This document shows positions 16,868 through 50,129 of a stretch of DNA of 64,000 nucleotides, piece by piece (the first letter of the stretch is position 1; every line of letters begins with the position of its first letter). Under the pieces are notes generated by a model. That model was not told the DNA's origin and did no database searches. It saw nothing but the letters and a program-made list of their open reading frames with translations. Position numbers and translations under genes: made by a program. Source of the DNA: Plasmodiophora brassicae (Eukaryota); the NCBI GenBank assembly GCA_036867785.1, contig CP145414.1, positions 124,001 through 188,000 on the forward strand, written 5' to 3'.

Positions 16868-17083
16868 ATGAACCCCTTCGAGATGTTTGAGTGCTGCGTC
16901 TGCCTGGAAGAACTCGCCTGCTGCTTCGCCTGCGTCTGGTGCTGCAAGACGATGTGCTGCTGCGGCGGCAGAGACAGTCGCCGGCAGCAGCAGCAGCCCA
17001 TGGTCGTTCAGCAGCCGGTGATGATGCAGCCTCAGCAGGGTTACGTCCAGCAAGGGTACCCGCAGCAGCCGCCCCGTTACTGA
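16868..17083 (+). CDS. Small Cys-rich / Gln-Pro-Tyr-rich protein, 71 aa (CYSTM-like composition)
   Basis: MNPFEMFECCVCLEELACCFACVWCCKTMCCCGG...QQGYVQQGYPQQPPRY, with GC3-rich codons like neighbouring genes. Confidence 0.7.
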   Translation: MNPFEMFECCVCLEELACCFACVWCCKTMCCCGGRDSRRQQQQPMVVQQPVMMQPQQGYVQQGYPQQPPRY

Positions 17084-17146
17084 GTAATACAACCAAGGGA
17101 TGCGGCGGCCCGCCTGGGACAATCTACTGGGCGATGTATGTCGTGA

Positions 17147-19839
17147 TCACATGCGGTTGACGGTTCGGATGCCGAGCAGGCTGAGGCCGGTCTTGATGAC
17201 GGCGCCGACGGCGACGATGAACTCGACGCGCGTGACGCGCAGGTCGGCGGTGGGCGCGTCCATGACCGGCGACCGCTCGTACCAGGCGTTGAAGTCCTTG
17301 GACAGGTCGAACAGGAACTTGCAGAGCACGAACGGCTTGTAGTCGTAGGCGGCCTTCTCCACCGTCGCCCAGAACGAGTTCAGCGAGTACAGCAGCGCAC
17401 GGTCGTACTCGGTGCCCAGAAGGCCCAGGTCGACGCGCCCGTCGCTGGGTGTGCCCACCTTCGCCAGGATCTGCTTGATGCGCGCGTACACGTAGCACAT
17501 GTACGGTCCTGCAGGGAACGATCAGCAGGCGGGCTGGATGACGAGGGCACGCGGCCCAACCAACCCGTATCGCCCGTCTTGGCGGTCCAATCCTTCAGGA
17601 TGAACGTGATGTCCTTGATCGGGTCCTGGTTCAGCATGCGATACTTGATCGTGGCCACCGAGATGGCGTGCTTCACTGCACAGCGAACGCATCAGCACAC
17701 GGCGCGCACAGCCACAGGCAGAGACGGGCCCGGCCACGTACCAGATTCAATCTCGTCGGACGACCAAATCTCACATTCCTTCTCGACGGTCGACCCGTCC
17801 TTCTTCGCCTGCAGGAAGAACCCGTCCTTGTACTTCTTCAGGTACGATTCCATGATCTCATCCGCCTGTGCAACCATTACCCCGATGCGAACAACGCGCC
17901 CGTTCCAGCGCGCCCCTACCAGTTGCTTCCTGAGTTCCGAGAAGTAGATGACAGTGCCATCCCGGGAGCTCATCTTGCCATGCTCACCAACGACCTGCCC
18001 GTACGCCAGGTGGAAGCACTTCTTGGCCTGCGGGTACCCCATGCGATCGAGGCAGGCGAACACCTGCTGGAAGTGGCAGCTCTGGGCGGCATCGACAACG
18101 TAGATGCTGCGGTCGATGTGGAATTCGTCAAACTTGCGACGCGCCAGCGCCAGATCCTTCGTGGCGTACAGGCCGGCCCCGTTCGACTTGATGAGGACCA
18201 GGAAGGGCAACGGCGGCTTGCACATGGACAGGTCACAGCCGATGGCGCCGTTCGTCTCCACCATGACGCTGCCGCCCTCCTTGCCGAGCTGGTAGTTCTC
18301 CATCACCATGGCCTTGCTGTCCTCGCTGACCTCCGACTCGAAGAAATCGTGGTCGAACCTCTGCACCACCGTCAGTGACGACCATCAAACGTATGCAGGT
18401 CGATGACGGACGGCGTCCAGCCAGGCGTAGATCGACTTGAACTCGTCCAGGCTCCACTTCTTGGTCGCGGCCCACAGCGCACACCATTCCGGGTCGCCCG
18501 ATTCCAACTTGAGCAGGACGTCGCCGACTTCCTTCTTCTGCTTCTTGTACGCCTCCTGGACCGATCCCGGGTGCTTCTTGTCCAGCTTGCCGATCTCGAT
18601 CAGGGCGTCGCCGGGCGAACACTCTTCCGCGATCAGCATGATCGCCTTGGCGTCGCCGCCCTGGCTGGCGCCCTGTGCCGCCTTCTTCTTCTGCTTGTTG
18701 CTCAGGCCGGCCTCGGGCGTCGCGTTCGCCGATTTGGGCGGCTGGGCGCCCAGCTCGGCGTACGCCAGCATGATGCCACTGGACTCCACGCCCATCATGT
18801 CCTTCGTCGCCACCGTCTGCTTCTTGAACCGCGTCCCGACTGGGATGTACGCCACCATGTCACCAACCTAACCCAGCCGTCAGACACGGGGCAGGATCTC
18901 GTCACCCAATCACCACAAACCGTGTATCCAGTGCCGCCGCAGACAACGGTCGCCGTTCGTCCTTCGCCGTACTCGACCTGGCAAACGTGCCAGTTCTTTG
19001 GGGCGTTCGGTGCAGGGTGCGCATCGATGGATACGACGCGGGCGGCGACGACGCCATCGTACGGGTATTTGGTGAGCTGGCTCAGGTCGAGCATGTCGTT
19101 GGCTTCGGCGTAGAGCAGGCCGAGGTACTCGCCCTTGCGATCGTCGGGCACGTTCAGGCCGTCCAGGTCGCACCCGCGTTCGTCCATGCGCTGCTTCAGC
19201 AGCCACAGGCACTTGGCGACATGGGCGCCCTCGTCGCCAAAGTAGTTGGCGGCGACGACCTTGTGCCCCATATGCTCCCACAGACGGACCAGCGAATCGC
19301 CCAGTGCCACGTTGCGCATGTGACCCACATGGAACGCCTTGTGCGTGTTCGGCTGCGAATACTCAATCATGACCTGGCGAACGTCGTCGTCGTTAGGGGC
19401 GACAGCTTCATGGGCACCCAATGCTAAGCACCTTCTCCTTGTTGCCGACAGGCTGCGCGTCCAGGTACCCTTCGTGGTTGATGGCGTGGACGACGGACGC
19501 GAAGAAGGCGGTGCGCAGCGTGACGTTCAGGGTCGGGCCCTGCACGACAATGGATTCGAAGATGGTGGACAGCGCGTCATCAGGCGACGTGATCCGCTCC
19601 GAGAGCAGCGACGCGAGTTCGGTGGCGATCTGGGCGGGCGGGCGCCCGCCGACCAATTTGCAGAGCGAGGCGCACGGGAACGCGAGTTCGCCTTGGCCGC
19701 GGCCGCGCGGCCGCTGCGTGCATTTCCTCAGCGTCGCCATGGCGTCGTCCGGTATCTCGGCCTGCAGCGACGTCACGCACGCTGACGCAATTGCCGCAAG
19801 CAGCGCCTCGCGCGCCTCGTCGATCACGTTCCTCGTCAT
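17147..19839 (-). CDS. RARS: Arginyl-tRNA synthetase with inserted tRNA-binding OB-fold, multi-exon
   Basis: IEYSQPNTHKAFHVGHMRN (HIGH), KSNGAGLYATKDLA, KMSSRDG (KMSKS), GDTG-PYMCYVYARI and the DALR-type end KTGLSLLGIRTVNRM. Confidence 0.95.
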
Positions 19840-20293
19840 GATGATGATGCCCGCTGCGTCTACGTACACGTTGCTCTGCGGAATCCGCCTGCCTACGCCT
19901 GCGCCGGTGCGTTCCGCTACGGAAGCCGCAGCGGCCGGCGCTGCCCTCCGTCGCGGACTTTCTATATCTAGACGCGGGCCACTTGTGGACTGCACCACAC
20001 ACGCGGCATTCGAGAGGCGGTCCACGTCGTGCCTGCCCGTAATTCACCTCGTCCTGGAACTTGATCTACCGCATCATCGTAGATCAGTTCACAGAGCTGT
20101 TCCTCTACGCCCTCCTGCTTGGGGTGATCAACGATTTGAGCCGATTCACGTCGTCCTGGGCAGTACACATGAAGAGTCGAGTACGTAACGCAACTACGTT
20201 GCAATGTGATCAGGTCTCCAGATGCGGTGTGGGGGTGTAATGCGATACCCCTCTGTCGACAACTGGGTGGGTCTGCACGTGATCGGGCTCAGC

Positions 20294-23005
20294 CTAAGGT
20301 TTCGCCGTGAAGGACACCGGCTTCATGGACAGGGCGCCGCCGGTGCGCGACTCGCCGCCAGCCGTGCTGGTCTTCACGCTGACCGTCTTGGTCTCCATGA
20401 CCATCTTGATCTGCGTGGGTGTCATGGTCGCGATCAGGTAGAACTTGTAGCTGAACAGGGTGCCCAGCGTGCACAGCACGATGACGGCGACGGCCACGGC
20501 ACGAACGACCAGCTGGACGCTCGGGTTATCCTTCAACAGCAGGAGAACGGGAAGGATCAGGACCTATCATGGAGGGCCCGGGGTTCAGAATTGTTCCCAC
20601 ATGCGCATGGCCCCGTCCATTATGGTCCGGCCCGGTTACCAGTGCAAGGAAGATGTTGTACGCGCACATGCACCTGTTCGAGCAACGGAGTCAGTGCCCG
20701 CGACGTGTTGCCAGCGGACTCGGCAATCTGCGACCGACATGTATTTCGTCTCGTTGAACATGAGCATGGGGATGTCCCGCGAGCGGTACGCCATGGCAGT
20801 GCCGGCGACGATGATGGCAAAGTGGATGGCGGCGACCAGCCAGAATCCCGCTGGCGCGTACTGGCAGCTGTAGACGAAGTCCAGGTCGGCGCCACAGGGG
20901 CACCCGGACACTCGGAACACCCTCTGGACGGTCGCCATGGCGCTGATCGTGTCCTGGCCGGCCATCCAGGCGCCGATGGCGATGGCGTCCACGGCGACCA
21001 GCAAAGCGAGGCGCTTGAAGACTTCGGCGTTGGTGATCGTCACGGTCCGCATGACGCCGCTGGCGCCCGACGCTGCCGCGAAGATCTGGGCCACCCTGTG
21101 CTGCTTGACGTACAGCGCGCCCTGTGTGTCAACCGGGGCGTGAGAAGGTGCCATTCGCGGGAGACGTCACGCCCTCGACGTCAGCATGTACCATCATGGT
21201 GATGAAGCCGATGCAGGTCAGCCAGACGGTGGCCCAGCAGCCGCTGGGGAACAGGTTCGGCTTCAGGGTCGCCGTCACGTTCGACGCCAGGAACACGACG
21301 GCGCCGATGCAGATGGTGATGCAGAAGATGGGCGATGCGCTCCTGATGACGGGATTGTCCTTGTTGTAGATGAAGGCGGGGATCAGGGCCAGGGCAACGA
21401 CCATGGCGAGGCCCGTCACCGAGTACGCTGTGGCGAATGCCCACGGTGCGGTGAGCAACTCGTTCAGGCAGCGATCGGGCAGCAGCGACCGGTCGTGCAG
21501 CAACAGGACCAGCTGGCACTCGATCGTGTTCAGCGCGTCTTGCGGCGACACGCGGCCCATCAGCGCCTGCAGGCGGACATGACCGCTCAGCACGAGGTGG
21601 CGCTACGTGGCTCGCGACGTACCTGCTGGATGTTCGTGAAGACGATGCGGGAGGCGTTCCCGTAGTGTTGAGGGGCCGTCGGCGCGCTGAACCTGTCGGC
21701 ACGAGCGCGTCAAGCTGGGACGACGTGCGAGCACACGCGTCGTGATTACCGGAACACGGAATAGTCATCGGTGATGTTCGTGTCGCACACCTGCCAGTGG
21801 TTGGGGTCGTAGGGTCCACACAGGCGCTTGCCGCAGTAGATCGACGTCCTGGACGGCGCCAACCCGAACAGGCGGTACCGGCGCGTCTGCTCTTGGACGG
21901 ACAGCATGGTCGTCAGCGTCGACGCCGCCTGCTGCGGGCGACTCGAGTACTTGGAGATGCCCAGGTAGGCGCTGCCGGCCGTCCCCTTCGATCGTGTCCC
22001 GGGGCCGTCGTTCGGCAGCATGGCAATGCCATAGGTCGCCGCGGTGACGTCGTCGCCTGGGAAGTTCTGCAGGCCCCACTGGCGGGTGAACGCGGCGCCG
22101 CCCGCCTCGAACAGCGCCTTGGACCCGTCCGCGTCCCAGGACGTCACCTGGTAGGGGCTGATGCCGCCGACCCATCGCACCGCACGCGCCAGCGCTTTCA
22201 CCGCTTTCGGGTTGTTGATCGACACCTGACAGGGGACGGCCGCCACGTCAACGTCCATGCAGCAGGCGAAGCGACATCTGGCGGGGCGATTACCCTGCCG
22301 TCGGGTTCGATGATGTTGCCGCCGCCATGCGAGCTGATCAGTTCGAGAATGTTGCAGGTCAGGCTTTCGTCCAGGGCGTCCCAGGCGTAACCGTAGAACT
22401 GCGGATTGGTCTGCCGTTCGCCCTCCTGGATCGTACGCGACATCTCCTCGAGCTCGTCCCAGGTCTGGGGCGGCGCCGCGTACCCGTACTTGGCCAGCAG
22501 GGCCTTGTTGTAGATCAGGAACGCGTTCTGGATGTCCCACGGTAGAGCGATGAGCCTGCCCTTGTACCAGCCGGCCTCGAGCCCGTCCGGATGGAACTGC
22601 TGTACGAAATCGGCGGGCAGGAGCTCAGTCAGGTCGGCCATGTGCTCGGCAAAGTCGGCCACCCAGATCGTGTCCATGTACGCAATCTGCCCGACACGAA
22701 TGTCAATTGCTTCCGAACGTTCCGGGCAGGGGCGGCCACCACTGCAGGTTCGTTACGTCGACGGCGCCCCGCTTCTGGATCTCGGCGTACTCTGCCGAGT
22801 ACGTGTCGCTCCAGGTCTCCAGGCCGATCGTGCTGTCCACACTGATCTGCACGTCGGGCACCAGGGACGAGATGTGGTCGGCGTACGCCTGCAGGCCGGC
22901 ACTGTCGGTGGCGTTGTCGGCCGTGGCCGTCAGGAACGTCAGCGTATCCGCTGCTGTGGCCCACCGCACGAGGGCCGGCCCGATAAGCAGAGCGACGACG
23001 AGCAT
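20294..23005 (-). CDS. Class C (7tm_3) GPCR with N-terminal ABC-type sugar-binding protein domain, paralog 1, multi-exon
   Basis: Signal peptide. SBP motifs LIALPW...LIYNKALLAKYGYAAPPQTWDELEEM, ESLTCN, GGGNIIEPDG|VSINNPKAVKAL. 7TM motifs PVIRSASPIF, LYVKQHRVAQIF and FNETKYM. Confidence 0.88.
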
Positions 23006-36783: not shown

Positions 36784-37863
36784 TTAAACGGCACCGAGCC
36801 GATCAGGGCGCGTTCGCCGGGTCAGGCTGTGCGCCGAGGGGCACCAGTTCCTGACGATAGCGACGACGATGCCGATGACGATGACGGCGACCGGGATGAT
36901 CCAGAGGAACTCGAGGGCGTTGTCGTGGCGCCACGGCGTGATCTTGAAACCGACGCCCAGAGCGACGTCGTCGGCGGCGACACGGAACAGACAATGATCC
37001 GATCCGATGATCAGGTCGCCGGTTCGCACGTCAACGGCCAGGGTGAAGTGCTTCGGTGCGGTCGGCACGTGGACCGTGTTCAGAAGCGATAGCGTCGACC
37101 GGTCCCAGACGGTGACCGTCGACGACACGTTCGAGTCGTGCCCGACGTAGATCAGGTCGCGCTCGCCGTCGATTGCAAGGGCGACGGCAGGTTCGCCGGG
37201 TAGCGAAACGGGATGGTACTGCCTGCTGTTGACGTCAGCAACCAGGAGGAGGTTGTCGGCGCACGGCCCGGTGACGTAGACGGTGTCGTGTCGGTCCACG
37301 ACAAGGCTCGGGCGGCAATCCGGCGACGACGACGACAACGGCAACTGGAGCAACGTGCGCGTTCCGCTGGCGGTGGACGCGACGAGCGTGGCATCGTGCA
37401 GGACCATGTAGACGGTGCCGTCGTCGCCGATCGCCATGCCGGTAGGGTCAATGGCCATGCTGGCGCCGTACGGTGACGTCGTCCCGGGCGTGTCGGCGTT
37501 AACCGCGAACAGGGCAGCGCCCGTGCCGTTGGCGTCGATCGCGACGCCGACAATGGAGCGGCCAGCGGGGTCGAAGGCGATCATCGAGGCGGGTACGGGG
37601 GCCGTCATCGTACCGACGGCGCCCGTCCCCGGCGACACTCGACGCAACGACGCGGATCCATCGGCGGCGTACACGTCGCCTGACGCTGGGTCGACCGTCA
37701 GGGACAGGATCGATCCAAAGCGGTCGTCACCGGTGCGGTTCGGAGCGCACGCCGTTCCCGGCACGACGGGCGCCATCGACACGGGCGCGCCGTGCCCGAC
37801 GCACGATCCCAGCAGGACGACGGCGGCCCAGCCTAGGCGTACCCTGCCGCTGGTGCCAATCAT
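36784..37863 (-). CDS. Type I membrane protein with NHL/YVTN-like beta-propeller ectodomain, 359 aa
   Basis: Signal peptide; repeats LTVDPASGDVYAAD, IAFDPAGR, PTGMAIGDDGTVYMV and VALAIDGERDLIYVG; single C-terminal TM. Confidence 0.8.
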   Translation of the reverse strand: MIGTSGRVRLGWAAVVLLGSCVGHGAPVSMAPVVPGTACAPNRTGDDRFGSILSLTVDPASGDVYAADGSASLRRVSPGTGAVGTMTAPVPASMIAFDPAGRSIVGVAIDANGTGAALFAVNADTPGTTSPYGASMAIDPTGMAIGDDGTVYMVLHDATLVASTASGTRTLLQLPLSSSSPDCRPSLVVDRHDTVYVTGPCADNLLLVADVNSRQYHPVSLPGEPAVALAIDGERDLIYVGHDSNVSSTVTVWDRSTLSLLNTVHVPTAPKHFTLAVDVRTGDLIIGSDHCLFRVAADDVALGVGFKITPWRHDNALEFLWIIPVAVIVIGIVVAIVRNWCPSAHSLTRRTRPDRLGAV

Positions 37864-38251
37864 CAGTCGTGCGAACCTGGGATGGGCGGGCGCGTGCCAC
37901 CATTAGATTAGATTCCCTGCGGCGGCGTCGAGCAAGCCCAGGGCGTCAACCGGGCCGGGCACATCGGTTGACCTGCACCGGATGCGATCACCGTTAACGC
38001 TCAGGAGGCCTGGCAGGAGCGCATGCGTTCACCCAGCATTGTTGGCATCTGGCGCGCGCAGCCTGGGCGTACGTGTGCGGATCCCCAGACGCTTGCGGCG
38101 GCCCTGGTACGCGGGCGCTTCCCGCGCTCGATGTAACATGAACGCTTAGGGCTGCCTGCCCGATGTCGGGCGGCAGGCAGGCCGCGCGCGCTGACCGTCT
38201 GACGTCCGGCCAGCGGCAGCAGGCAGCCATACACACAACGGGGCCACGACT

Positions 38252-41200
38252 ATGGCGTCGCCTGCCGATGCTGGCGCCGCTGGCCGCCCACGCTGCTGCT
38301 TGCGGCGGCTGCTGCCGCTCCTGCTTGTATACTACGTGATGTTGATGGGGGCGCAGGCCGCGGCGCCCAAGCCGAAGCCGACGCCGGCCCCGACACCGGC
38401 GCCGACACCTGCGCCGACACCGGTGCCCGCGCCGACCCCGAGCCCCTACGATTGCACAACGCACTGCGACACGCTGACGTCGGACGGCGCCTTCAACTCG
38501 TACTGCAGCACGACGGCGACCGGGTACGTGGTCGGCGGCAAGAGCGGGCAGACGGTGCCGTACAACGGCGTCAGCTTCCCGTGGAACCCCTGCTCCGTCG
38601 AGCGGTACGCCGCCTGCACGTGCGGCGCCTACTGCCAGGTGTTCGGCGACTGCTGCCCCACGTTCTACAGCGAGTGCCTGTACCCGTCGCTGTCGACCTG
38701 GCAGCCGAACGTCGGCCTGGCGACGAGCGGCCAGCAGACGGTCGTCGTCACCGGCAAGTACCTGACGATCTACCTGCCGAACGGGACGACGGTCGCGCCC
38801 GTCTTCGCCTGCAACGGCCAGCGGCTGACCGGGGCGGTGCGCACGGCCACGACGCCGTTCAACTCGTACGCGACGTACCCGAACGCGCCGACCGGGCCGC
38901 CCGGCCTCGTCGAGATGAGCGGCCTGGAGACGTGGCAGCTGACGATGCCGGCGACGGCGGGCGGGTCGTCCGTGTCCTGCTCGGTGACGAACCCGTTCGT
39001 GGCGGCGAAACCCGCCCTGCAGACCGTGTCGTACGCGGCGCCGGTCATCACGTCGACCGTGCCGGCGCTGATGCCGACGGCCCCGGCCAGCGTCGTCGTC
39101 AACGGCCAGTACTTTGGCACGTCGCCCTCCGCCAGCATCAACGGCGTGCCGGTGACGCCGACCGCATCGGGCGACGCGCAGCTGACGCTGGCGTGGCCGG
39201 GCGGGACGGGCGTCCAGATCCCGATCACGGTGCGGGCCGCCGACCAGTCCAACACGTTCTACGTCAGCTGCGCGCCGCCGACCGTCACGGGCGTGTCGCC
39301 GGCGCACGGGCCCACCGACGGCGGCGGCACCGTCGTCGTCACCGGCACGAACCTCGGCAGCGATCCGGCGCTGATCAGCGTCCAGTTCGGCGCGTACGGC
39401 GCCTGCACGAACCTGCAGGTCGTGTCGGCGCACACGGCCGTGTCGTGCGCCGTGCCGCCGGGCCTGTCCCTGCAGACGATCACGGTGACGGTCGGCGGGC
39501 AGACGTCGACGTCGGGCGGCGCCGGCGTCACCTACCAGTACGACGCGCCGACCGTCGCCCGGGTCGTATCGGTGGCCACCGGCCTGACGACGCTGCCGAC
39601 GGTCGGCGGCCTGATCCAGGTGACGGGCACGAACTTCGGGCCGGGCGGCGCGGCGCCGCAGGTCCTCGTTCAGTTCGGGGCGCAGGCCTGCACGAACGTG
39701 ACGGTGACGGCGCCCAACACGGTCCTGCAGTGCACGATCGGCCCGTTCGAGGGGACCGCCTCGCTCGTCGTCCAGGTCGCCATGCTGTCGAGCGCGGCGT
39801 TCACCGTGGCGGCGACGGCGCCGACCGTGACGAGCGTGTCGCCCAGCGCGGGCCTGTCGACGGCGCCCGGCAACGCCACGCTGACCGTGCTGGGCGCCAA
39901 CTTTGGCCTGACCGGCGCCGTCTACCTGACGCAGACGCTCGGGCAGGCGGGCGTGCCGTGCGCGTCCACCCGCCCCCTGCCCTGGTCGCCGACCCACGAC
40001 CAGGTGCGGTGCACGTCGCCCGGCGCCCAGGGCACCGCCTGGATCGTGTACGTGGCCACGGTCGGCGGCGCCACGTCCAACCAGGACCGGACCGTGTCGT
40101 TCGCGGCGCCCGTCCTGACGGCGGTGGCCCCGACGACGTCGCCGACCGAGGGCGGCGCCGTCGTCGTCCTGACCGGGTCGGCGCTGGGCACGACGGGCAC
40201 CGCCCTGGTCGGCGCGACGCCCTGCACGGCCACGACGTTCGCCCAGACGACGGGGACCTGCACGACGCCGCCGCTGGTGCTGCCGGGGCCGTCGACGTCG
40301 CTGGGCGTGTCGGTGCGCGAGACGGCCCCGTTCGCGTACAGGGCGTCGACGCTGGCGAACGCGCTGTCCTACCTGGGCCCGTCGGTGCTGTCCGTGTCGC
40401 CGGCGGCGATCGCGACCGGCAGCGCCAACCAGGTCGTCACGATCCGCGGGTCCAGCTTTGGCAACCTGCCCGGCACGGTCTACTTCGCCGGGTCGCACGC
40501 CTACTGCCAGCTGGGCGGCTGGTCGCACACGGTCATCACCTGCACGACGCCGCCCATCAACGGCACCGACGCCGCCTTCGTCGTCACGTCCTACGACGGC
40601 AAGGCGGTGTCGGCGCCCAACGCGCTGACGCTGGCGGCGCCGTCGATCACGGCCGTGTCCAGCGCGCCCTCGCCCATGCCGACGACGACGGGGACGGGGA
40701 CGCGCGTCACCATCCAGGGCGCCAGCTTCGGGTCGGCCGGCAACGTGTCCATCGGGGGGCAGGCCTGCGCCCCGATCGTCTCCTGGGCGCACACGCAGGT
40801 CGTCTGCCAGCCGGCGTCGGGCGCCGGCGCCAACCTCGACCTGGTCGTCTGGCGCACGTCGACGCGGCCGCCGGCCCTCGTCCGCCTGTCCAACGCGATC
40901 GGGTACGCCGCCCCGGGCATCGTGGCGGTCGTCGGCACCGGCGGCGCGCCCGCCGCCTGCGACACGGCCGGCACCGCCGTCCTCACCGTCCAGGGCACGA
41001 ACCTGGGCGTGTCCGGGGCGACGCCCGTCCAGGTCAACGTCGGGTCGAACGCGTCCCTGCTGCTGCCGGCCAGCTGGGTCGGCGCCGCCCAGGTCGCGTT
41101 CACCTGCCCGCCCGGGTACCTGGACACGCAGGTCGCCCTGGTCGTCGCCGGGCAGTGGTCGCCGGCCGTCCCCCTGGCGTACCAGGCGCCGACGGTGGCG

Positions 41201-44200
41201 GCCGCGTCCCCGACCCTGCTCAACACGACGGGCGGCACACGGCTCCTGCTGACCGGGACGAACTTTGGGACGGCGGCGGCCACCGTTGCCGTCGCCGTCG
41301 GGTCGGCGCCCTGCTCCCCGATCGTGGCGCGCACGCAGACGACGCTGACGTGTGTGGCGCCGGCCGGGTCGGGCGCCGCCGTCCCCGTCATCGTCACCGT
41401 GGGGACGCGCTCGTCCGACGGCCGGTTCACCGTCGGGTACCTGGGCCCGTCGATCGCGTCGATCGCGCCGACGCCCGGCCTCGGGTTCCCGACGACGGGC
41501 GGCGTCCCGGTGACGGTGGTCGGCGCCAACTTTGGCGCGTCCGCCCAGGTCCAGGTGGCGTCGGCGCCCTGCCCGGCGCTGACGTCGCCGGCCCCGACCT
41601 CGACCCGGATCGTCTGCACGCTGCCGCCCGGGCAGGGCGCCCAGGTCCAGGTGTCCGTCTCGACCGGGTCGCAGACCAGCCCCGCCTACCTGTTCGCGTA
41701 CGACGCGCCCGTCGTCCACGCCGCCTACACGGGGCCGGCGCAGGCGAACTCGACCGCCGGCGGGTACGCGCTCACGATCGCCGGCGCCAACTTTGGGGCG
41801 GCGGGCCTGGCCGCCGCCGCCATCGCCGGCGCCGCCTGCCCGACGCAGACGGGCGGCCAGACGCGCCTGCTCTGCACGGTGCCCGCCGGCCAGGGCGCGT
41901 CCCTGCCCGTCGTCGTGACCGTCGCCGGTCAGACGTCGAACGTCAACGTCCTGTTCTCGTACGCCGCGCCCGTCATCCAGTCCGTCCTGGTCAACGGCGT
42001 CGCCGGCGCGCCCGTCCCGACGCAGGGGAACGCGCGCCTGACCCTGCTGGGCACGTCATTCGGCACGGCGTCGACGGTGACGTTCAACGGCGCGCCCTGC
42101 ACGCTCTGGCCGGGCACGCAGCAGCACACGACGGTGCAGTGTGTGCCGGGGGCCGGCGTCGGCGCCGCCCTGCCCCTGACGCTGACGGCCGGGACGCAGT
42201 CGGCCACGACGCTCCTGTCGTACCAGGCGCCGACGGTCGCCTCGGTGTCGCCGCCGACCGGCCCCACCCAGGGCGGCACGCTGCTGACGATCACGGGCGC
42301 CGACTTTGGCCCCGCCGGCGTCGTCCTCGTCGGCGGGCAGACGTGCGCGCCCGCCGGCACCGGCCAGCAGTGGACCTCGATCGAGTGCCTGACGCCGGCC
42401 GGCGTCGGCGCCGCCCTGTCCGTCGTCGTGGTCGCCGGCGGCGTCCCGTCGTCGCCGGGCGCCCCGTTCTCGTACGGCGCCCCGGCGATCCAGGTGCCGC
42501 TGCTGACCGGGCCGCCCTTCACCGAGGCGACGCCCGGCAACCTGCTGTCGTTCGCCGGCGTCAACTTTGGCGACCCGGCGACGCCGCTGACGGTGACGAT
42601 CGGCGGGCGGGCCTGCCCCGTCGTGGCGCACACGCACACGCGCGTCAACTGTTCGGTGCCGACCGGGGCGGGCGCCGCCCTGCCCCTGCAGGTCCGCGTC
42701 GGCAACCAGGCGTCGCCGGTCGTCCCCTTCTCGTACGCCGCCCCGGTCGTCGCCCGCGTCCGCGGCTGCCCGGTGACGTCGGGGGCGGCCACCGCTGACT
42801 GCCCGGTGGCGGGCGGCACCACCATCACCGTCTACGGCAGCAACTTTGGGCCGGGGGCCACCGTCACCGTCGCCGGCCTGCCCTGCACGCCCGTCGCCTA
42901 CGCCTGGCCGGGCGCGCCGTCCACTGCCGCCAACCAGACGCTGTCCTGCCCGCTGGCGGCGACGCCGGCCGGCGGGTTCGGCGTCGACCTCGTCGTCAAC
43001 GTGAGCGGCCAGGTCGGCACGGCGCCCGCCCTGCTGTCGTTCGCCGGCCCCGCCCTCGTCCCCGGCACGCTCGTGTTGACGGACGCGCAGGGCCACCGGG
43101 TGGGCGATGCGCGCGCCCCGCCCGGCCCGTCGAAGGCCAACTGGACGACCGTGTCGCCGCCCGTCGTCCTCGCCCGGTTCAATTGCACGCACGCGTCCGC
43201 CCGGCCGCTGTCGGCGACGTTCGGCCCGGCCGCTGACCCGTCCCTGTTCGCCTGTGCGGCCACGAACGCGACCACGTCGGGCGCCGTCACCACCGTGTCC
43301 TGCCTGCTGCCCAGCGCGGTCGGTGCCGCCCTGCGCTTCGTCGTCCGCGCCGGCCTGCAGACGTCGCTGCCGGGCGCCGACACGCTGGCGTACCCGGCGC
43401 CCGTCCTGGTCAACGCGTCGCTGGGCCTGGGCGGCGGCGGCCCGCGCGGCAACGCCCTCCAGTCGGCGCAGACGTCCGGCGACGTGGTCGCGTTCCAGGC
43501 GCGGTTCGCCGGCGCGTCCGCCGCCCTGCTGCGCGTGACGCTGGGCGCGCCCGGCACCAACTACACGGACTACGCGTGCCTGTCGGTGCGGGCCGTGCTG
43601 GCCGCCCCCGACCTCTTGAACGTGACCTGCCGGACGCCGTCGGGCACGGGCGCCAGCATCGCCGACCTGCGCTTCGTGCTCTGGGCCCTGGACCAGGCGT
43701 CGCCGCCGAGCCCCTTCACGTACTCGTACCCGGTGCCGCCCGTCGTCTACGGCGTGGCCGGGTGCCCGGCGGCGCCCACGCCCAACTCGACGGCCAGCTG
43801 CGACACGGAGGGCGCCAACGTCCTCACCGTGTACGGCGACCACTTTGCCGCCGCCGACAGCGTCCTCGTGTCGTCGTTCGCCTGCGTCATGGCCACGTTC
43901 GTGTCGACGCAGCAGTTCACGTGCGCGTTGGCGCCCGGCGCCGGCCTCCTGCTCAACGTCGTCGTCCAGGCCGGCCTGCTCTACAGCAAGGCGGCCCCGC
44001 TCGTCTCGTACGCCGCCCCGGTCGTCGACGCCGTCGCCGGGTGCGTCCAGTCGTCGTCGTCGTCGTCGTCGTCGCTGTCGCCCTCGTCGACCTACAACTG
44101 CAGCCGGGCGGGCGGCGACCGCATCACGATCCTGGGCCGGTACATGGTGGCGCCGGCCACCGTCTACGTCGGCGGCCAGCTCTGCACGGGCGTCGTGCAC

Positions 44201-47200
44201 AGCGAGGCGCGCCCGCAGCGCAACCTGTCGTGCACGGTGCCGCCGGGCGCCGGCCTCGACCACTCGATCATGGTCGTGCAGGCCGGCGGCACCGTCGGCG
44301 TCGCCGCCGGCAACGTCACGCTGTCGTACCTGCCGTGCGCGCCCGGCACCTACGTCCAGGGGCGCGCCTGCTCGCCCTGCGCCCCGGGGACGTCGTCGGC
44401 GACGTCCAACGCCCTGGTCTGCGACGCCTGCCCGCCCGGGTCGGTGGCGTCGTCCGCCGGCCGGTCGTCGTGCGCGGCCTGCGCCCCGGGCACGTACAGC
44501 AACGCGAACGCGACGTCGTGCGTGCCGTGCGCGTCGGGCACCGCCTCGCAGGCCACGGGCGCGACGTCGTGTGCGCCCTGCGCCGCCGGTCTGTACGCGC
44601 CGGTGCCGGGCGCCACGACCTGCCAGCAGTGCCCGGCCGGGTCCGTCCCGCTCCTGCCGGCGTCGACGTCGTGCGGGCCGTGCGCGCCGGGCACGTACTC
44701 GCCGGTGGCCGGCCAGGCGACGTGCCTGCCGGCGCCGGCGGGCACCTACGTGAACGGGACGGGCGGGGCGACGACGTACACGTCGTGCCGGCCGGGCACG
44801 TACCAGCCGCAGCAGCAGCAGACGTCGTGCGTCAGCGTCCCGGTCGGGTACGTGCAGCCGGCCGCCGGCCAGGCGTCGTACGTGCCGTGCCCGGACGGGC
44901 AGTTCGCCAACGCGACCGCCATGACGACGTGCCTGACGTGCCCGCCCGGCACCTACTCGATCGGGCCGGCGTCCGTCTGCACGCCGTGCCCGCCCGGATC
45001 GTTCGGCAACAGCGCGGGCATGAGCGCCTGCCTGGCGTGCCCGGCAGGAAGGTACGCCCCGCCGGCGCGTGCGCTCGCTCGCCAGCTGATCTCTCTCTCT
45101 CTCTGTGTGTGTATAGCTACACGACGCTGCCGGGGCAGACGTCGTGCCAGGCGTGCGCGCCCGGCACGCAGGCGTCGGGGCCGGGCCGGACGGCCTGTTC
45201 GCCCTGTTCCGCGGGCACGTACGCGTCGGCGCCCGGCACGATCGCCTGCGTGCAGTGCGACAGCGGCACGTTCATGCCGAACGCATCGGCGACAACCTGC
45301 GCGTCCTGCCCGGCGGGGACGGCCAGCGCGTCCAAGTCGACCGCGTGTGTCGCGTGCGGCCCGGGCCGGTACGCGTCCGGGCCGGGCAATGCGGCGTGCG
45401 CGCCGTGCCCGGCCGGCACGTTCGCCAACGCGACGTCCATGTCGCAGTGCCTGTCCTGCCCAGCGGTAACCACCGGGCGCCGCGGTCGGTGCGGTGCGGG
45501 CGCGCTGCTGACCATCCGCGCGCGCGCGTGCTGTACAGGGGACGTCGAGTGCGGCGGGCGCGTCGTCCTGCACGCCGTGCGCGCCGGGCAAGTACGCGGC
45601 GCACTCGGGCACCACCGACTGCCAGGCCTGCGACGCCGGGTTCGTGTCGGGGCGCGCGGGCGCCACCCAGTGCGCGCCCTGCCCGTCGAACGCGTGGAGC
45701 CCGAAGCAAGGTGCGGCGGTGGCGCGCCCGTCTCGTCCTTGTCGCAGGGTGGTCTAACGTGCGCGCGCGCCCACAGCGTCGACGTGCACGCCGTGCCCGG
45801 CGGGTCAGCAGGCGCTCGTCAACGGGTCGGCGACGTGCACGTCGTGCCCGGCGGGGTCGGCGTCGACCCGGAGCGGGACGGCCTGCGCGACCTGCCCGGC
45901 GGGCACCTACCAGAACGGGTCGACGCCGACGTCCTGCGCCGCCTGCCCCGACGGGTCGTACAGCGCGTTCCCCGGGTCGACCATCTGCGCCCTGTGCCCG
46001 GTCGGCCGGTACAGCAACGCGTCGGCCATGGGCGGCGCCCCGCTCGACCGGTGCCTGTCGTGCCCGCCCGGCAGCGTCCAGGCGCGCCCCGGCCAGGCCG
46101 CGTGCACGGCCTGCCCGGCGGGCTCGGCGCCGAACGCCGCCCCCGACGCCCCGGTCACCTGCGTGCCCTGCGCGCCGGGCACGTCCGCCCCCGTCGCCGG
46201 CCTGGCCGCGTGCGGGGCCTGCGCGCCCGGCACGACCTCGCTGACGTCGGGCGCGACGAAGTGCACGGCGTGCCCGGCCGGCAGCACGTCGCTGGCCGGG
46301 TCGTCGACCGGCTGCACGACCTGCCCGGTCGGCACGTTCTCGTCGGGGCCCGCCTCGCCGAACTGCACGTCGTGCGCGCCCGGCTCCTTCCAGGACGGGT
46401 CGACGTCGGCGCCGACGACCTGCCCGCCGTGCGCGCCCGGCCACGCCCAGCCCGGCGCCGGCCAGGCGACCTGCCCGGCGTGCGCGCCCGGCTCCTACGC
46501 CGACCGTCCCGGCCTGCTGTCCTGCGTGCCGTGCGCGCCCGGCAACTTCACGTCGAGCGCCGGGCAGTCGACGTGCCGGGCGTGCCCGGTCGGCACGTAC
46601 ACGGACTCGCCAGGGTCGCCCGCCTGCCTGCCCTGCGACCCGGGCTTCTACGTGGCGGGGGCCGGCGCCCAGGCCTGCCTGCCGTGCCCGTCCGGCCAGT
46701 ACCGGTCGGCGTCCATGTCGGACGCGGGCCGGTGCCGCCCCTGCCCGGTCGGGTCGGCCAGCGAGGCGCCCGGGCAGACGGCGTGCGCGTCCTGCGCGCC
46801 CGGCCGGTTCGCCAACGCCACCGGGCAGACGACGTGCACGGCCTGCCCGCCCGGCACGACGTCGTCGTCGCTGAGCCTCGACGGCCTCGGGTCGTCGTCC
46901 TGCGCCGCCTGCCCGGCGGGGCGGTTCGCGCCCGACGTGGCGCACCCGACCTGCGACCCGTGCCCGGCGGGCACCGCCCAGAACGGGACGGGGGCGGCGG
47001 CCTGCAACGCGTGCGGCCCCGGCACGCAGCAGCCGTCGACCGGCCAGACGCAGTGCCTGCCCTGCCCGCCCGGGTTCTACTCGTCGCAGGCCAGGAACGC
47101 CGAGTGCGTCCCCTGCCCGCTCGGCACGTTCGCCAGCGGGTACGGCGCGACGGCCTGCGCGCCCTGCCCCGCCGGCCAGTTCCAGGACACGCGCGGCCAG

Positions 47201-49879
47201 ACCTCCTGCCAGACCTGCTCGCCGGGCCGCTTCACGAACGTGACCGGCACGATCGTGCCGTGCACGGCCTGCCTGCCGGGCACGTACGCCGGGGCGGGCG
47301 GCGCGGCGCAGTGCGCGCCGTGCCCGCCCGGCCAGTTCCAGGCGGGCGACGCACCCGCCCTGCAGTGCGTGGCGTGCGCGCCCGGGTCCATGGCGCCGGC
47401 ACCCGGCATGGCGCAGTGCACGCCGTGCCCGCCCGGCCAGTACAACAACGCGTCGGGCGCCACCGCCTGCCTCGACTGCGACCTGGGCCAGCAGCAGCCG
47501 AACCTGGGCGCCCTGGCCTGCCAGCCGTGCGCCCCGGGCACGGCCACGGCCGGGCGCCGGACGGCGTCGTGCGGCGAGTGCCCCGCCGGCACGTACAGCG
47601 CCGTGAACGGGTCGTTCCAGTGCGGGGCGTGCCCCGGCGGCACCTACGCGCCGTCGTTCGGCGCGTCGGCCTGCACGGCCTGCCCGGCCGGGTCGTTCAG
47701 CACGAACCGCGGCGACGACACGCTCCTGCTGACGCACTGCACGCAGTGCCCCAAGGGGCAGTACGGGCCGGCGCCCAACGCCACGTCGTGCCTGACGTGC
47801 GGGCCCGGCCGCTTCCAGGACAATGTCGGGCAGGGCGCCTGCCTGCCCTGCCCGGTCGGCAAGTACGTGCGCGAGTCGGGCCAGGCGGCCTGCGCCGACT
47901 GCCCGGCCGGCACCTACGCCAACGGGACGGGGGCGGCCGAGTGCCGCCCCTGCCCGCCGGGCACGTTCAGCGGCCCGACCGGGTCGTCGGCCTGCCTGCC
48001 GTGCGCGGCGGGCAAGTTCTCCACGGGCCACGTCCAGGAGTGCACGACGTGCGGCGGGTCGCAGGCGGCGCCGCACGCCGGCCAGTCGTCGTGCGCCGAG
48101 TGCGACCGGCGGTCGACGGCGAACAAGTTCCACAGCGTGTGCCTGTGCCAGGCGGGCCTGTACAGCGACGAGCGCGACGACATCGGGTCGCAGTGCCAGC
48201 CCTGCATGCGGGGCGCCGTCTGCCCGGTCGGCACGACGATCAGCAGCATGCAGGCGGCGCCGGGTTACTGGAAGCCGACGAACGTGTCGACCATGTTCTA
48301 CCAGTGCCTGCTGCAGAAGAACTGCCTGGGCGGCGTCGACGCGGCCTGCGAGGCGCACCATCGCGGCCCGCTCTGCGCCATCTGCGACGCCGGCTTCTAC
48401 ATGACCGCCCGGGGCGACTGCTCGCAGTGCCCGTCGCGCGCCGCCAGCTGGGCCTACTTCATCCTGATTGGCGCCCTGTTCGCCGCCCTGCTCTGGGCCC
48501 AGTTCTACATCGTGCTGCGCGCCGGCGCCGTCAAGATCCGCCACGTCAAGGCGCAGGACGCCGCCGACGAGAACGAGCGCTTCTGGAGCGACGTCATCGG
48601 CGTCGGCCTGACGCAGCAGGCGTCGCGGCAGAGCGTGCACGCCAGCGAGCTGGCGCGCATGCGGTCGGCGCAGGCCGAGGCGGCCGCCGTGCACGGCCAG
48701 CCGACGCCCAAGCCGAACTTCTCGTACAAGCTCAAGATCATGCTCGGGTTCGTCCAGATCATGACGTCGCTGGTCGGCATCATACAGACGCCGCTGCCGG
48801 GCACGTTCGAGGACTTTGTCTCGCTGTTCGCCGTCATCAACCTGGACCTGTTCGCCTCGGCCGGCACGCAGTGCGTCGTCCCGTCCGACTTCTACGACAA
48901 GTTCCTGTTCGAGGCGCTGACGCCCATCTGCCTGCTCGTCCTCGTCATCGTCCTGTACCTGATCCCGAAGAACGTCCTGAGCCGGGAGACGGACGCGCGC
49001 GCCCGGAAGCGCTCGCGGAAGAAGTTCTGGCGCATGCTCATCTTCTCGCTGTTCCTCATCTACCCGTCCGTGTCGTCGACGATCCTGCGCCTGTACGTCT
49101 GCACCGAGGTCGAGGGCGTCCACTACCTGCGCGCCGACATGAGCATCACCTGCTACACGACGCAGCACAACGCGTACATGGCCCTGGGCGCCTTCTTCAT
49201 CGCCCTGTACCCGGTCGGCATCCCCGTCTTCTTCTTCGTCATGCTCTACCGGTACCGGCACCGCCTGCAGGAGGACGGCGTCAAGGCCGAGCTCGGCTTC
49301 CTGTACGACGGCTACGACCACACGTTCTGGTGGTTCGAGGTGCTCGACATGGTCCACAAGCTGACCATGACGGGCCTGCTGGCGTTCGTGCCGCCCACCC
49401 AGCAGCTGGGCGTCGCCGTCTGCATCGCCGTGTCGTACGCGGCCGTCATCCTCGTCATACGCCCGTACATTCGCAAGGCGGACGACCGCCTGCACCTGTT
49501 CGCCCAGGTCGAGATTTTTGTCGCCTGCGTCGCCGGCTACATGTTCGGGTCGCAGATCGCCATGGACAAGGCGACCGACGTCGGCCTGTCCGTCCTGCTG
49601 ATCGTGATCTTCGCGGCGTTCACGGCGCTGTTCGCCGTGCAGGCCGCCCGCGTCATCTACAAGATGGTCCGCCTGCGCCGGGAGCGCCGCCTGCGCAAGG
49701 CGCACCTGGCCCAGAGCAAGGACGCCGACCTGGGCCAGATGAGCGACCCGAGCACGGACCCGCCGACGTTCCTCTTCTCGCAGCGCTCCTACGGCAGCCT
49801 GATGCAGGCGGACCCGGCCACCGTCCCGCTGTCGTCGTCGGGCAAATCGGCCGTCACCGGGCCGCTCCCCGTCAAGTAG
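38252..49879 (+). CDS. Giant surface protein, 3807 aa: SP, somatomedin-B-like, many IPT/TIG, many CxxCxxGxY repeats, ~7 TM; introns 45052-45116, 45466-45538, 45711-45776
   Basis: Three GT-AG introns join ORF 38252+ to ORF ..49879 in frame (11424 nt). SMB CTCGAYCQVFGDCC; IPT PTVxxVSPxxGPTxGGT...GTNFG; TM module LKIMLGFVQI...GFLYDGYDHTFWWFEVLDM. Confidence 0.9.
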
Positions 49880-50129
49880 CGGAGGTGTGCCGGGTGCCAC
49901 CCCCCTGCTGTCGCCGATGCTGTACGCCGCCGACCTTAGGCTTCGTGTATATAAACCGCCAGACGCGATCTGCTGCTGACGCCCCCCGCCCATGTGAAAC
50001 GCGCCGAATCGGCCTGGCTGGAATACACTGTGGTGGTACACGGGATACGATCGGATCACTGGTCCCGCTCGCTGTAGGGAATCAACCGTATCGGTGCGCA
50101 CCGCCGCTGATCGCGTCTGTGGTGGACCG

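What the first reader, a model, noticed from the sequence alone, without database searches (positions are those of the whole stretch)
18597..19065. ArgRS with a PheT-B2-like tRNA-binding OB-fold inserted inside the catalytic domain
Seen: YLGLLYAEANDML and KKEVGDVLLKLESGD are normally close together in ArgRS. Here about 150 aa separate them: GVVAARVVSIDAHP...WHVCQVEYGEGRTATVVCGG...VGDMVAYIPVG...MMGVESSGIMLAYAELG...IMLIAEECSPGDAL. Known: this pattern (HP, VCG, GVxSxGM..ELG) is the tRNA_bind/EMAPII/Trbp111 OB-fold of the bacterial PheRS-beta type. It is usually appended to MetRS/TyrRS/PheRS rather than embedded in ArgRS. The core (SQPNTHKAFHVGH, GDEGAHVAK) also looks prokaryote-like. Inference: a rare chimeric synthetase, possibly acquired by HGT, and a selective drug target.
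Basis: partly seen in the sequence, partly recalled or inferred. Interest (0 to 1): 0.72.

Follow-up and report, generated by a model that had tools for sequence, protein, structure and literature searches.

The report
ArgRS with a nested tRNA-binding OB-fold
This eukaryotic gene encodes a bacterial-type arginyl-tRNA synthetase with a small RNA-binding-type barrel domain built into its catalytic core; the layout is real and expressed, is shared by many bacteria and protists, and appears never to have been studied.

Summary
A seven-exon minus-strand gene (19839..17147) encodes a 784-aa arginyl-tRNA synthetase (ArgRS). Residues 238-385 (window 19070..18574) form a PheRS-beta-B2/YtpR-type tRNA_bind OB-fold nested in insertion domain Ins1 of the Rossmann fold. 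Spliced contigs from three runs of three studies remove only my six predicted short introns and keep the insert. A profile built from 47 PheRS-beta B2 domains hits the spliced protein at 68.4 bits, against 0 of 999 shuffles. An AlphaFold model of a bacterial orthologue's insert (pLDDT 95) matches PheRS-beta chains best in the PDB.

The "rare chimera" reading is not supported. Of the 97 closest core relatives that cover the site, 95 carry the insert. So do 38 of the 80 best bacterial loci, from Planctomycetota, Acidobacteriota and Bdellovibrionota. With insert columns removed, insert-bearing enzymes form one clade. The window groups with a diatom inside a clade holding all seven named eukaryotes. 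Eukaryotic copies add a lysine-rich loop inside the OB-fold.

The likely function, an extra cis-acting tRNA-binding surface, is inferred and not shown. I found no paper describing the layout.

The parts
17147..19839 (-). ArgRS coding region: 7 exons (19839..19432, 19373..18921, 18867..18412, 18360..17920, 17865..17742, 17675..17565, 17508..17147 including the stop), 784 aa
   Evidence: Gene model built from the sequence. Every one of the six joints is reproduced by spliced contigs of X1, X2 and X5, and the DNA-like run X15 is unspliced.
17115..19956 (-). Minimum transcript extent seen in one spliced contig (X1 record 1). The 5' leader 19840..19956 holds no ATG.
   Evidence: table 8; sequence read; upstream in-frame translation.
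19432..19839 (-). Exon 1: N-terminal Add1-like domain (weak match)
   Evidence: Pfam Arg_tRNA_synt_N E 0.022, 15.8 bits, below the 21.5 cut-off. It aligns with the Add1 of P0001, which scores 51 bits.
19320..19331 (-). HIGH motif (HVGH, aa 151-154)
18574..19070 (-). PheRS-beta-B2/YtpR-type tRNA_bind OB-fold nested in Ins1 (aa 238-385), interrupted by intron 2
   Evidence: PheT-B2 profile 68.4 bits on aa 238-330, with the last strand at aa 359-381. Pfam tRNA_bind on the exon-2 half alone gives E 0.013. Alignment A2 with 32 bacterial inserts. Orthologue model and PDB fold search.
18868..18920 (-). Intron 2 (53 nt, GT..AG) inside the OB-fold coding region
   Evidence: a joint skipping 53 nt in X1, X2 and X5.
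18655..18738 (-). Low-complexity lysine-containing loop (aa 331-358, ...SNKQKKKAAQG...) inside the OB-fold, absent from the bacterial orthologues
   Evidence: Alignment A2. Loop census: at least 20 aa in 25 of 28 rows of the eukaryote-containing clade, and 7 aa in 16 of 16 bacterial rows.
18775..18792 (-). GVESSG, the window's form of the conserved G-V-x-S-x-G motif of the OB-fold
   Evidence: G93, S96 and G98 are nearly invariant in A2.
17962..17976 (-). KMSSR (KMSKS-type loop, aa 568-572)
17767..17823 (-). Second, small lineage-specific insertion (aa 601-619, GFFLQAKKDGSTVEKECEI) between the catalytic and anticodon-binding domains
   Evidence: Gap of 18 residues opposite P0001 in the pairwise alignment; coordinates.
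17150..17506 (-). DALR anticodon-binding domain (exon 7)
   Evidence: Pfam DALR_1 E 2.6e-24, profile 2-117 of 117.

Best explanation
The gene encodes an expressed, intact arginyl-tRNA synthetase of a bacterial-derived clade. A PheRS-beta-B2/YtpR-type OB-fold (Pfam tRNA_bind) is nested at the tip of insertion domain Ins1, between the two halves of the Rossmann fold. The insert was not acquired by this organism. It was already present in the common ancestor of a clade that today includes enzymes of Planctomycetota, Acidobacteriota (Holophagae), Bdellovibrionota and several protist lineages. The window's copy sits with a diatom's. In the eukaryote-containing branch the OB-fold has gained a further lysine-rich, low-complexity loop. 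Inferred mechanism (not shown): the OB-fold, helped in eukaryotes by the basic loop, is an extra cis-acting, structure-specific tRNA-binding surface. It would raise the affinity or capture of tRNA(Arg) for an enzyme that needs bound tRNA even to activate arginine, much as appended tRNA_bind domains do for MetRS, TyrRS and Arc1p/AIMP1. I put identity and anatomy at about 0.95 and the tRNA-binding mechanism at about 0.5. The confidence figure below is for the whole statement.
For: Shown. (1) Gene model and expression. There are six GT-AG introns of 51-66 nt. Contigs of X1, X2 and X5 (three studies) join across exactly these six and keep the insert, and X15 is contiguous. (2) ArgRS identity. Pfam tRNA-synt_1d gives E 5.2e-16 and 6.7e-22, and DALR_1 gives 2.6e-24. 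HVGH and KMSSR are present. (3) OB-fold identity. The PheT-B2 profile scores 68.4 bits with 0 of 999 shuffles passing. BLASTP of the protein against PheRS-beta P0097 gives 42.5% identity over 87 aa. 5 of 8 full-length relatives tested pass Pfam's PF01588 cut-off: P0001 28.2, P0034 33.8, P0012 38.7, P0005 56.3, P0014 40.3 bits. (4) Fold. The insert of the Saltatorellus ferox orthologue models at pLDDT 95.1 as a beta-barrel. Its best Foldseek PDB hits are PheRS-beta chains (6oz5_B E 2.3e-9; 4p71, 1b7y, 1pys, 2iy5), then 3bu2 and a YtpR model, with Trbp111, EMAPII, MetRS-C and CsaA weaker. (5) Position. P0001 aligns to E. coli ArgRS in two blocks that leave out residues 188-350. The gap falls inside E. 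coli Ins1 (residues 164-221 per PMC3956977, passages read). The full-length model (pLDDT 93, pTM 0.87) aligns 566 of 707 residues to yeast ArgRS 1f7u_A at Z 39.9. (6) Conservation. 122 of 124 fetched relatives that retain the HIGH-side anchor have the insert, and G, S and G of G-V-x-S-x-G are nearly invariant. This argues for selection on the module. (7) Phylogeny with insert columns removed. The insert-bearers form one clade (98/97), the eukaryote-containing clade has 100/99, and window plus Seminavis has 100/96. Inferred from the literature: OB-folds fused to synthetases raise affinity for tRNA, Trbp111 binds the tRNA elbow, and a lysine-rich linker strengthens binding in tRip (PMC8501954, passages read). 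B2 domains are also fused to some TyrRS and LysRS (PMC5370408, passage read).
Against: No binding or kinetic data exist for any member. Pfam could only be run on separate exons of the window's protein. The exon-2 half scores 16 bits (below the cut-off of 27) and the exon-3 half gives no hit. 3 of 8 relatives tested also fall below Pfam's cut-off. The PheRS B2 domain itself is described in a paper title as 'dispensable' and contributing to editing (Roy and Ibba 2006; I saw only the title, in the reference list of PMC5370408), so a B2-type fold need not boost aminoacylation. In the eukaryote-containing clade the residue after the conserved G of G-V-x-S-x-G is variable (I in the window). That it corresponds to the tRNA-binding Met of Trbp111 is my recollection and is not tested here. 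The structure models are of a bacterial orthologue (41% and 28% identical to the two window fragments). No coordinates were available to place the domain relative to bound tRNA. The runs that show splicing are labelled 'RNA? (a guess)'.
Confidence: 0.6

Rival explanations
1. The nested OB-fold no longer binds RNA. It serves as a structural cap of Ins1 or as a protein-protein interaction or assembly module, for example docking the enzyme to partners as OB-containing scaffold proteins do in multi-synthetase complexes.
For: The B2 domain of PheRS is called dispensable in a paper title (seen). The residue after the conserved G of the G-V-x-S-x-G motif varies in the eukaryote-containing clade. High pTM (0.87) of the full-length model suggests a fixed, packed position rather than a free arm.
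Against: The G, S and G of the motif remain nearly invariant across bacteria and eukaryotes. The eukaryote-containing branch added lysine clusters exactly on this domain (25 of 28 rows), which fits nucleic-acid binding better than packing. No partner is known.
Confidence: 0.2
2. The domain handles the tRNA 3' end or acceptor arm for a quality-control step (proofreading or release). This would be analogous to the contribution of PheRS B2 to editing and to CP1 editing domains, which occupy the equivalent insertion point in Leu/Ile/ValRS.
For: The insert sits in Ins1, between the two halves of the Rossmann fold. That this is the position where CP1 sits in related class Ia enzymes is textbook knowledge, not tested here. 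The title of Roy and Ibba 2006 links B2 to editing.
Against: An OB-fold has no hydrolytic site. To my knowledge ArgRS is not known to edit. Nothing in the calls points to a catalytic motif in the insert.
Confidence: 0.1
3. One reading: a rare, lineage-specific chimera created by recent horizontal transfer into this organism.
For: Word-based searches at first found a single relative (1 hit of 420 candidates; only the query itself of 321). The core is bacterial in type.
Against: The exhaustive search found 530 proteins at E<=1e-3. 95 of 97 nearest core relatives covering the site carry the insert, as do 38 of 80 bacterial loci. The window nests with a diatom inside a well-supported clade holding all seven named eukaryotes. 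The gene has six spliceosomal introns.
Confidence: 0.04
4. Artefact: the 'insert' is a retained intron or mis-assembled sequence that is absent from the mature mRNA.
For: None beyond the a priori risk.
Against: Three spliced contigs from three studies keep aa 238-385 and remove only the 53-nt intron inside it. The reading frame is open and homologous to bacterial inserts throughout.
Confidence: 0.01

Closest known systems
Canonical arginyl-tRNA synthetase (E. coli 4OBY/5YYM, yeast 1BS2/1F7U, P. horikoshii 2ZUE)
   Same: Same domain order: Add1, Rossmann fold with HIGH and a KMSKS-type loop, Ins1, Ins2, DALR anticodon-binding domain. The orthologue model aligns at Z 38-40 over 543-566 residues, and sequence E-values are about 1e-65.
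   Different: About 150 extra residues forming an OB-fold replace the tip of Ins1, roughly E. coli residues 180-213. The HIGH region reads EYSQPNTHKAFHVGH, typical of this bacterial subfamily.
B2 domain of bacterial PheRS beta subunit and the free-standing YtpR-like protein (PDB 3PCO, 6OZ5, 1PYS, 2IY5; 3BU2)
   Same: These are the best sequence matches (E 2.9e-8 to 1.4e-5) and fold matches (E 2e-9 to 4e-7) of the insert. They share the HP...VVCG...GVxSxGM...ELG pattern.
   Different: There the domain is N-terminal (residues about 45-150 of an 800-aa subunit) or free-standing. Here it is nested inside another enzyme's catalytic domain.
Terminally appended tRNA_bind domains: MetRS C-domain/Trbp111, TyrRS and AIMP1 EMAPII, Arc1p, tRip; B2-TyrRS and LysRS-B2 fusions
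   Same: Same Pfam family and the same presumed logic of adding a general tRNA-binding OB-fold to a synthetase (PMC8501954 and PMC5370408, passages read). Lysine-rich segments next to the OB-fold occur there too.
   Different: Those are N- or C-terminal fusions or separate proteins. Structurally they are more distant from this insert than PheRS B2 (Foldseek E 7e-5 to 7e-3).
Insert-less members of the same ArgRS subfamily (SAR324, Oligoflexia, Bacteriovoracia, about 580-600 aa)
   Same: 42-50% identical in the best tblastn segment to the reference enzyme (P0187, Saltatorellus ferox), with the same EYSQPNTH and KMSSR motifs.
   Different: Only 26-29 residues where the window has 181. No B2 profile hit.

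Membership tests
Arginyl-tRNA synthetase (class Ia) | Class I catalytic domain of the ArgRS type (Pfam PF00750) | tested here: met
   Exon 2 E 5.2e-16 (59 bits) and exon 4 E 6.7e-22 (78.4 bits), cut-off 23.3.
Arginyl-tRNA synthetase (class Ia) | HIGH and KMSKS-type signature motifs | tested here: met
   HVGH at aa 151-154 and KMSSR at aa 568-572.
Arginyl-tRNA synthetase (class Ia) | DALR anticodon-binding domain (PF05746) | tested here: met
   E 2.6e-24, 86 bits, full profile length.
Arginyl-tRNA synthetase (class Ia) | N-terminal Add1 domain (PF03485) | tested here: inconclusive
   15.8 bits against a cut-off of 21.5. It aligns to relatives that pass, such as P0001 at 51 bits. The nearly invariant Tyr of the G-P-Y-x-N motif is Thr in the window.
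Arginyl-tRNA synthetase (class Ia) | Arginylation of tRNA(Arg) | not testable with these tools
   Needs an enzyme assay.
tRNA_bind OB-fold (Pfam PF01588), PheRS-beta B2 / YtpR subtype | Pfam PF01588 match above the gathering score | tested here: inconclusive
   The spliced window protein could not be given to the Pfam tool. The exon-2 half alone scores 16 bits, below 27, and the exon-3 half gives no hit. 5 of 8 full-length relatives pass.
tRNA_bind OB-fold (Pfam PF01588), PheRS-beta B2 / YtpR subtype | Significant match of the whole domain to a profile of bona fide PheRS-beta B2 domains | tested here: met
   A profile of 47 PheT-like proteins selected by length and match position (3 of them Pfam-confirmed as PheRS beta) scores 68.4 bits, E 3e-20, with 0 of 999 shuffles passing.
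tRNA_bind OB-fold (Pfam PF01588), PheRS-beta B2 / YtpR subtype | OB-fold beta-barrel structure closest to PheRS B2 | tested here: met
   Tested for a bacterial orthologue only: pLDDT 95.1. Apart from 3bu2_A (rank 6) and the YtpR model 9a77_B (rank 9), every chain listed through rank 19 is a PheRS-beta chain, and 35 matches have E<=0.001.
tRNA_bind OB-fold (Pfam PF01588), PheRS-beta B2 / YtpR subtype | Binds tRNA | not testable with these tools
   Needs gel shift or filter binding.
Trbp111 / EMAPII / MetRS-C subtype | Closest sequence and fold relatives are Trbp111, EMAPII or the MetRS C-domain | tested here: not met
   None of these appears among the 10 PDB sequence hits at E<=1. Their fold matches are weaker (E 7e-5 to 7e-3) than those of PheRS beta.

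The most novel reading that the evidence does not exclude
In a broad set of protists (stramenopiles, chlorarachniophytes, heteroloboseans and the window's organism), this bacterial-derived ArgRS is the main cytosolic enzyme, or a dual-targeted one, rather than an organellar extra. Its nested OB-fold plus lysine-rich loop would then be a built-in tRNA-capturing arm, doing in cis what Arc1p/AIMP1-type cofactors do in trans. Hints: the window's transcript has no ATG-initiated presequence. The six species-named eukaryotic homologues have only 4-25 extra, hydrophilic N-terminal residues, while some unnamed ones carry long Arg/Ser-rich leaders followed by an internal Met. Lysine clusters sit on the OB-fold in 25 of 28 rows.
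Probability: 0.2. Interest if true: 0.7.

Novelty: new variant of a known kind. Interest (0 to 1): 0.45.

Why it matters
Accessory tRNA-binding OB-folds are a classic way in which synthetases gain tRNA affinity, but the described cases are terminal fusions or separate cofactors. Here the same module is nested inside the catalytic domain of ArgRS, the synthetase that needs tRNA even for amino-acid activation. It has been kept across at least three bacterial phyla and several eukaryotic supergroups. That makes it a natural experiment on how an inserted RNA-binding domain tunes a class I enzyme. It is also a clean marker of an old bacterium-eukaryote gene exchange. There is a practical warning as well: gene models can splice the domain out. 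If the enzyme proves to be the only ArgRS of a pathogen-related lineage, the insert would distinguish it from host enzymes, but nothing here shows that.

Tried and rejected
Word-based homologue searches with exon 3 (1 hit of 420 candidates) and with the insert of P0001 (only the query itself of 321) suggested rarity. The exhaustive search, the core-exon search and the genome scan overturned that.

No RNA holder is listed on record. The runs used are labelled 'RNA? (a guess)'. I rely on the spliced joints, not on the labels or on depth.

The window's genome is not held, so I could not look for a second, canonical ArgRS or name the organism.

The protein atlas returned only generic ArgRS clusters with scores of 0.86, which is no information on the insert.

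Literature searches found no description of an OB-fold or tRNA_bind domain nested in ArgRS. Searches were searches for ArgRS domain nomenclature, and one search was for the PheRS B2 domain. Kapps et al. 2016 ('OB or not OB', FEBS Lett) is not held and could mention it. Supplementary files were not consulted. Subscription journals are mostly outside the library, so absence in print is not proven.

The Thermomicrobia/Chloroflexia-type insert at the same site is not an OB-fold by profile comparison: only the shared flank aligns, and the probability against PheT B2 is 0.9%.

No tandem repeats were found in the GC-rich region 37500-50500 at score 200 or more.

I did not use complex prediction, because I make no claim that specific proteins bind each other.

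L042 was left out of the careful tree as a long branch.
Full report
**What is at the coordinates**

Open reading frames on the minus strand between 17.1 and 19.9 kb are pieces of one ArgRS in changing frames. Reading the sequence gave a seven-exon model with six GT-AG introns of 58, 53, 51, 54, 66 and 56 nt and a 784-aa product.

**Is the insert in the mRNA?**

- Nineteen public runs hold the stretch. Most hold about 0.75-0.80 of its words, and one (X15) holds all of them.
- Contigs of X1, X2 and X5, from three studies, each join across exactly the six predicted introns, with CT..AC ends on the plus strand. X15 is contiguous.
- The insert is therefore retained, and only the 53-nt intron within it is removed.
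- The runs are labelled 'RNA? (a guess)'. The joints themselves are the evidence.
- The X1 contig reaches 19956. The leader holds no ATG before 19839, and the in-frame upstream stretch back to a stop near 20043 has no Met. The AUG-initiated protein therefore starts level with bacterial homologues.

**What the parts are**

- Pfam on single exons gives the ArgRS catalytic domain (E 5.2e-16 and 6.7e-22), the DALR domain (2.6e-24) and a weak Add1 match (E 0.022).
- On the exon-2 half of the insert alone, Pfam gives a sub-threshold tRNA_bind match: 16 bits, E 0.013, profile 2-38 of 96.
- The spliced protein may not be typed into the tools, so I tested the whole domain locally. A profile built from 47 PheRS-beta B2 domains scores 68.4 bits on aa 238-330 (E 3e-20), and none of 999 shuffles passes. 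The last strand follows at aa 359-381, after a 28-residue low-complexity loop. Three of the PheRS-beta proteins were confirmed by Pfam.

**Relatives**

- Exon 3 first retrieved a single homologue, P0001. It is the ArgRS of a Holophagae MAG. Its Pfam tRNA_bind match (28.2 bits, residues 225-319) is nested between two halves of tRNA-synt_1d. It is 45% identical to the window's protein over 700 aligned residues, with the insert at the same place.
- An exhaustive HMMER search with the P0001 insert found 530 proteins at E<=1e-3. The top of the list is ArgRS-length proteins matched at about residues 190-360. These are followed by proteins of about 800 aa matched at residues 45-155, the position of PheRS-beta B2.
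- A search with exon 4, which contains no insert sequence, gave 809 proteins at E<=1e-20 among 1041 candidates. Of the 120 listed, 97 cover the insertion site and 95 of those carry the B2-type insert.
- The two exceptions are P0178, which genuinely lacks the insert, and the Bigelowiella model P0226, which keeps only the end of the loop and looks mis-spliced.
- Named members include Saltatorellus ferox, Seminavis robusta (UniRef A0A9N8EQV8), Lotharella, Amorphochlora, Willaertia, Acrasis and Percolomonas.
- In one genome per prokaryotic species, at least 590 stretches encode relatives. Of the best 80 loci, 38 have the insert: 8 labelled Planctomycetota, 9 Acidobacteriota, 12 Bdellovibrionota, 5 'Pseudomonadota' MAGs, 2 'Deltaproteobacteria' and 2 unlabelled. 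The other 42 do not.
- Insert-less relatives (SAR324, Oligoflexia, Bacteriovoracia) have 26-29 residues where the window has 181.

**Structure and position**

- The insert of the S. ferox enzyme, modelled with 34 aligned rows, has pLDDT 95.1 and a beta-barrel pattern.
- Foldseek against the PDB puts PheRS-beta chains first (E 2.3e-9 and below), then 3BU2 and a YtpR model. MetRS-C, Trbp111, EMAPII, Arc1p-C and CsaA are weaker. Sequence search of the PDB agrees.
- The full-length model (pLDDT 93.0, pTM 0.87) aligns 566 residues to yeast ArgRS at Z 39.9.
- Against E. coli ArgRS the two alignment blocks leave out P0001 residues 188-350. After allowing for the tag offset, the gap corresponds to about residues 180-213. 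This lies inside Ins1 (164-221) and includes its disordered parts, according to PMC3956977 (passages read).

**Evolution**

A maximum-likelihood tree was built from 66 rows and 564 columns, with the insert columns dropped and L042 left out. The bootstrap had not fully settled. The tree shows (the quick tree agrees):

- all insert-bearing enzymes on one side of a branch (98/97);
- a bacterial group (95/91);
- a clade with all seven named eukaryotes, the window and 27 unnamed rows (100/99);
- the window next to the diatom Seminavis (100/96);
- the heterolobosean rows together (100/99).

The insert is thus ancestral to the clade, and the eukaryotic copies look like one old acquisition. Its direction is inferred only from the bacterial insert-less sisters.

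**A eukaryotic elaboration**

At one loop of the OB-fold all 16 bacterial rows have 7 residues. In the 28-row clade that holds the window, 25 rows have 20 or more residues (median 50), rich in lysine runs. The window has 35 residues by this count, with KQKKK. Lysine-rich segments beside OB-folds strengthen tRNA binding in tRip (PMC8501954, passages read).

**Mechanism**

That the module is an extra tRNA-binding surface is inference, drawn from three things:

- family behaviour;
- conservation of G-V-x-S-x-G;
- the basic loop.

I could not compute its geometry relative to tRNA. Rivals are listed separately.

**Localisation**

Localisation is open. The window's protein and the six species-named eukaryotic homologues lack long presequences. 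Some unnamed homologues have long Arg/Ser-rich leaders followed by internal Met residues.

**Known or new**

The architecture is visible in public databases through precomputed Pfam lists. Five literature searches found no paper describing it. One relevant review is not held.

**Verdict**

It is an unstudied but widespread variant of a known theme, not a rare chimera.

Noticed in passing
L045, L046, L047, L050, L051, L054, L058, L062, L067, L069 (ArgRS loci of Thermomicrobia, Chloroflexia and one Acidobacteria MAG): These relatives carry a different insertion at the same Ins1 site (141-145 residues in the interval where insert-less relatives have 26-29; L045, L054 and L058 measured). It is rich in Trp, Glu and Arg and has no Pfam match. 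It is unrelated to the OB-fold by profile comparison, since only the shared flank aligns. The tip of Ins1 seems to be a hot spot for domain insertion.
   Followed up: partly
L042:1001-2998: An unnamed bacterial ArgRS has a 135-residue insert that starts like the OB-fold (LTEFPY...GRVLES) but fails the B2 profile. It may be a decayed OB-fold. It is a long branch in the tree.
   Followed up: no
P0226 (Bigelowiella natans gene model, 472 aa): The model jumps from the HIGH-side helix straight to '...KKKEKLPNKIYIV...', the end of the lysine loop and the last OB strand.
   Followed up: no
window 19840-20042 (-): The in-frame stretch upstream of the start ATG is open for 67 codons, has no Met and is rich in Arg, Ala and Ser (...SPRRRAAPAAAASVAERTGAGVGRRIPQ...). 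At least 39 of these codons are in the transcript contig. Non-AUG initiation giving a targeted isoform is conceivable but untested.
   Followed up: no
window 19540-19560 (-), aa 100-106: The nearly invariant Tyr of the Add1 motif G-P-Y-x-N is Thr in the window (GPTLNV) and is also altered in Seminavis and several other rows of the eukaryote-containing clade. This could mean altered D-loop recognition.
   Followed up: no
window 38252-45469 (+), inside the 38-48 kb region of 72-79% GC: A 2405-codon open frame has 13 IPT/TIG domain stretches (E 1e-129) followed by ephrin-receptor-like cysteine repeats. Long open frames also run on the opposite strand, as expected at such high GC. No tandem DNA repeats at score 200 or more.
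   Followed up: partly
window 20636-21154 (-): The neighbour upstream of the ArgRS gene matches the family 3 GPCR transmembrane domain (7tm_3, E 2.5e-12). It is probably one exon of a larger gene.
   Followed up: no
window 16868-17083 (+): A small open frame just beyond the ArgRS 3' end is rich in Cys, Gln and Pro. Contigs of X2 and X5 run on across this region at high depth, so something there is probably transcribed.
   Followed up: no
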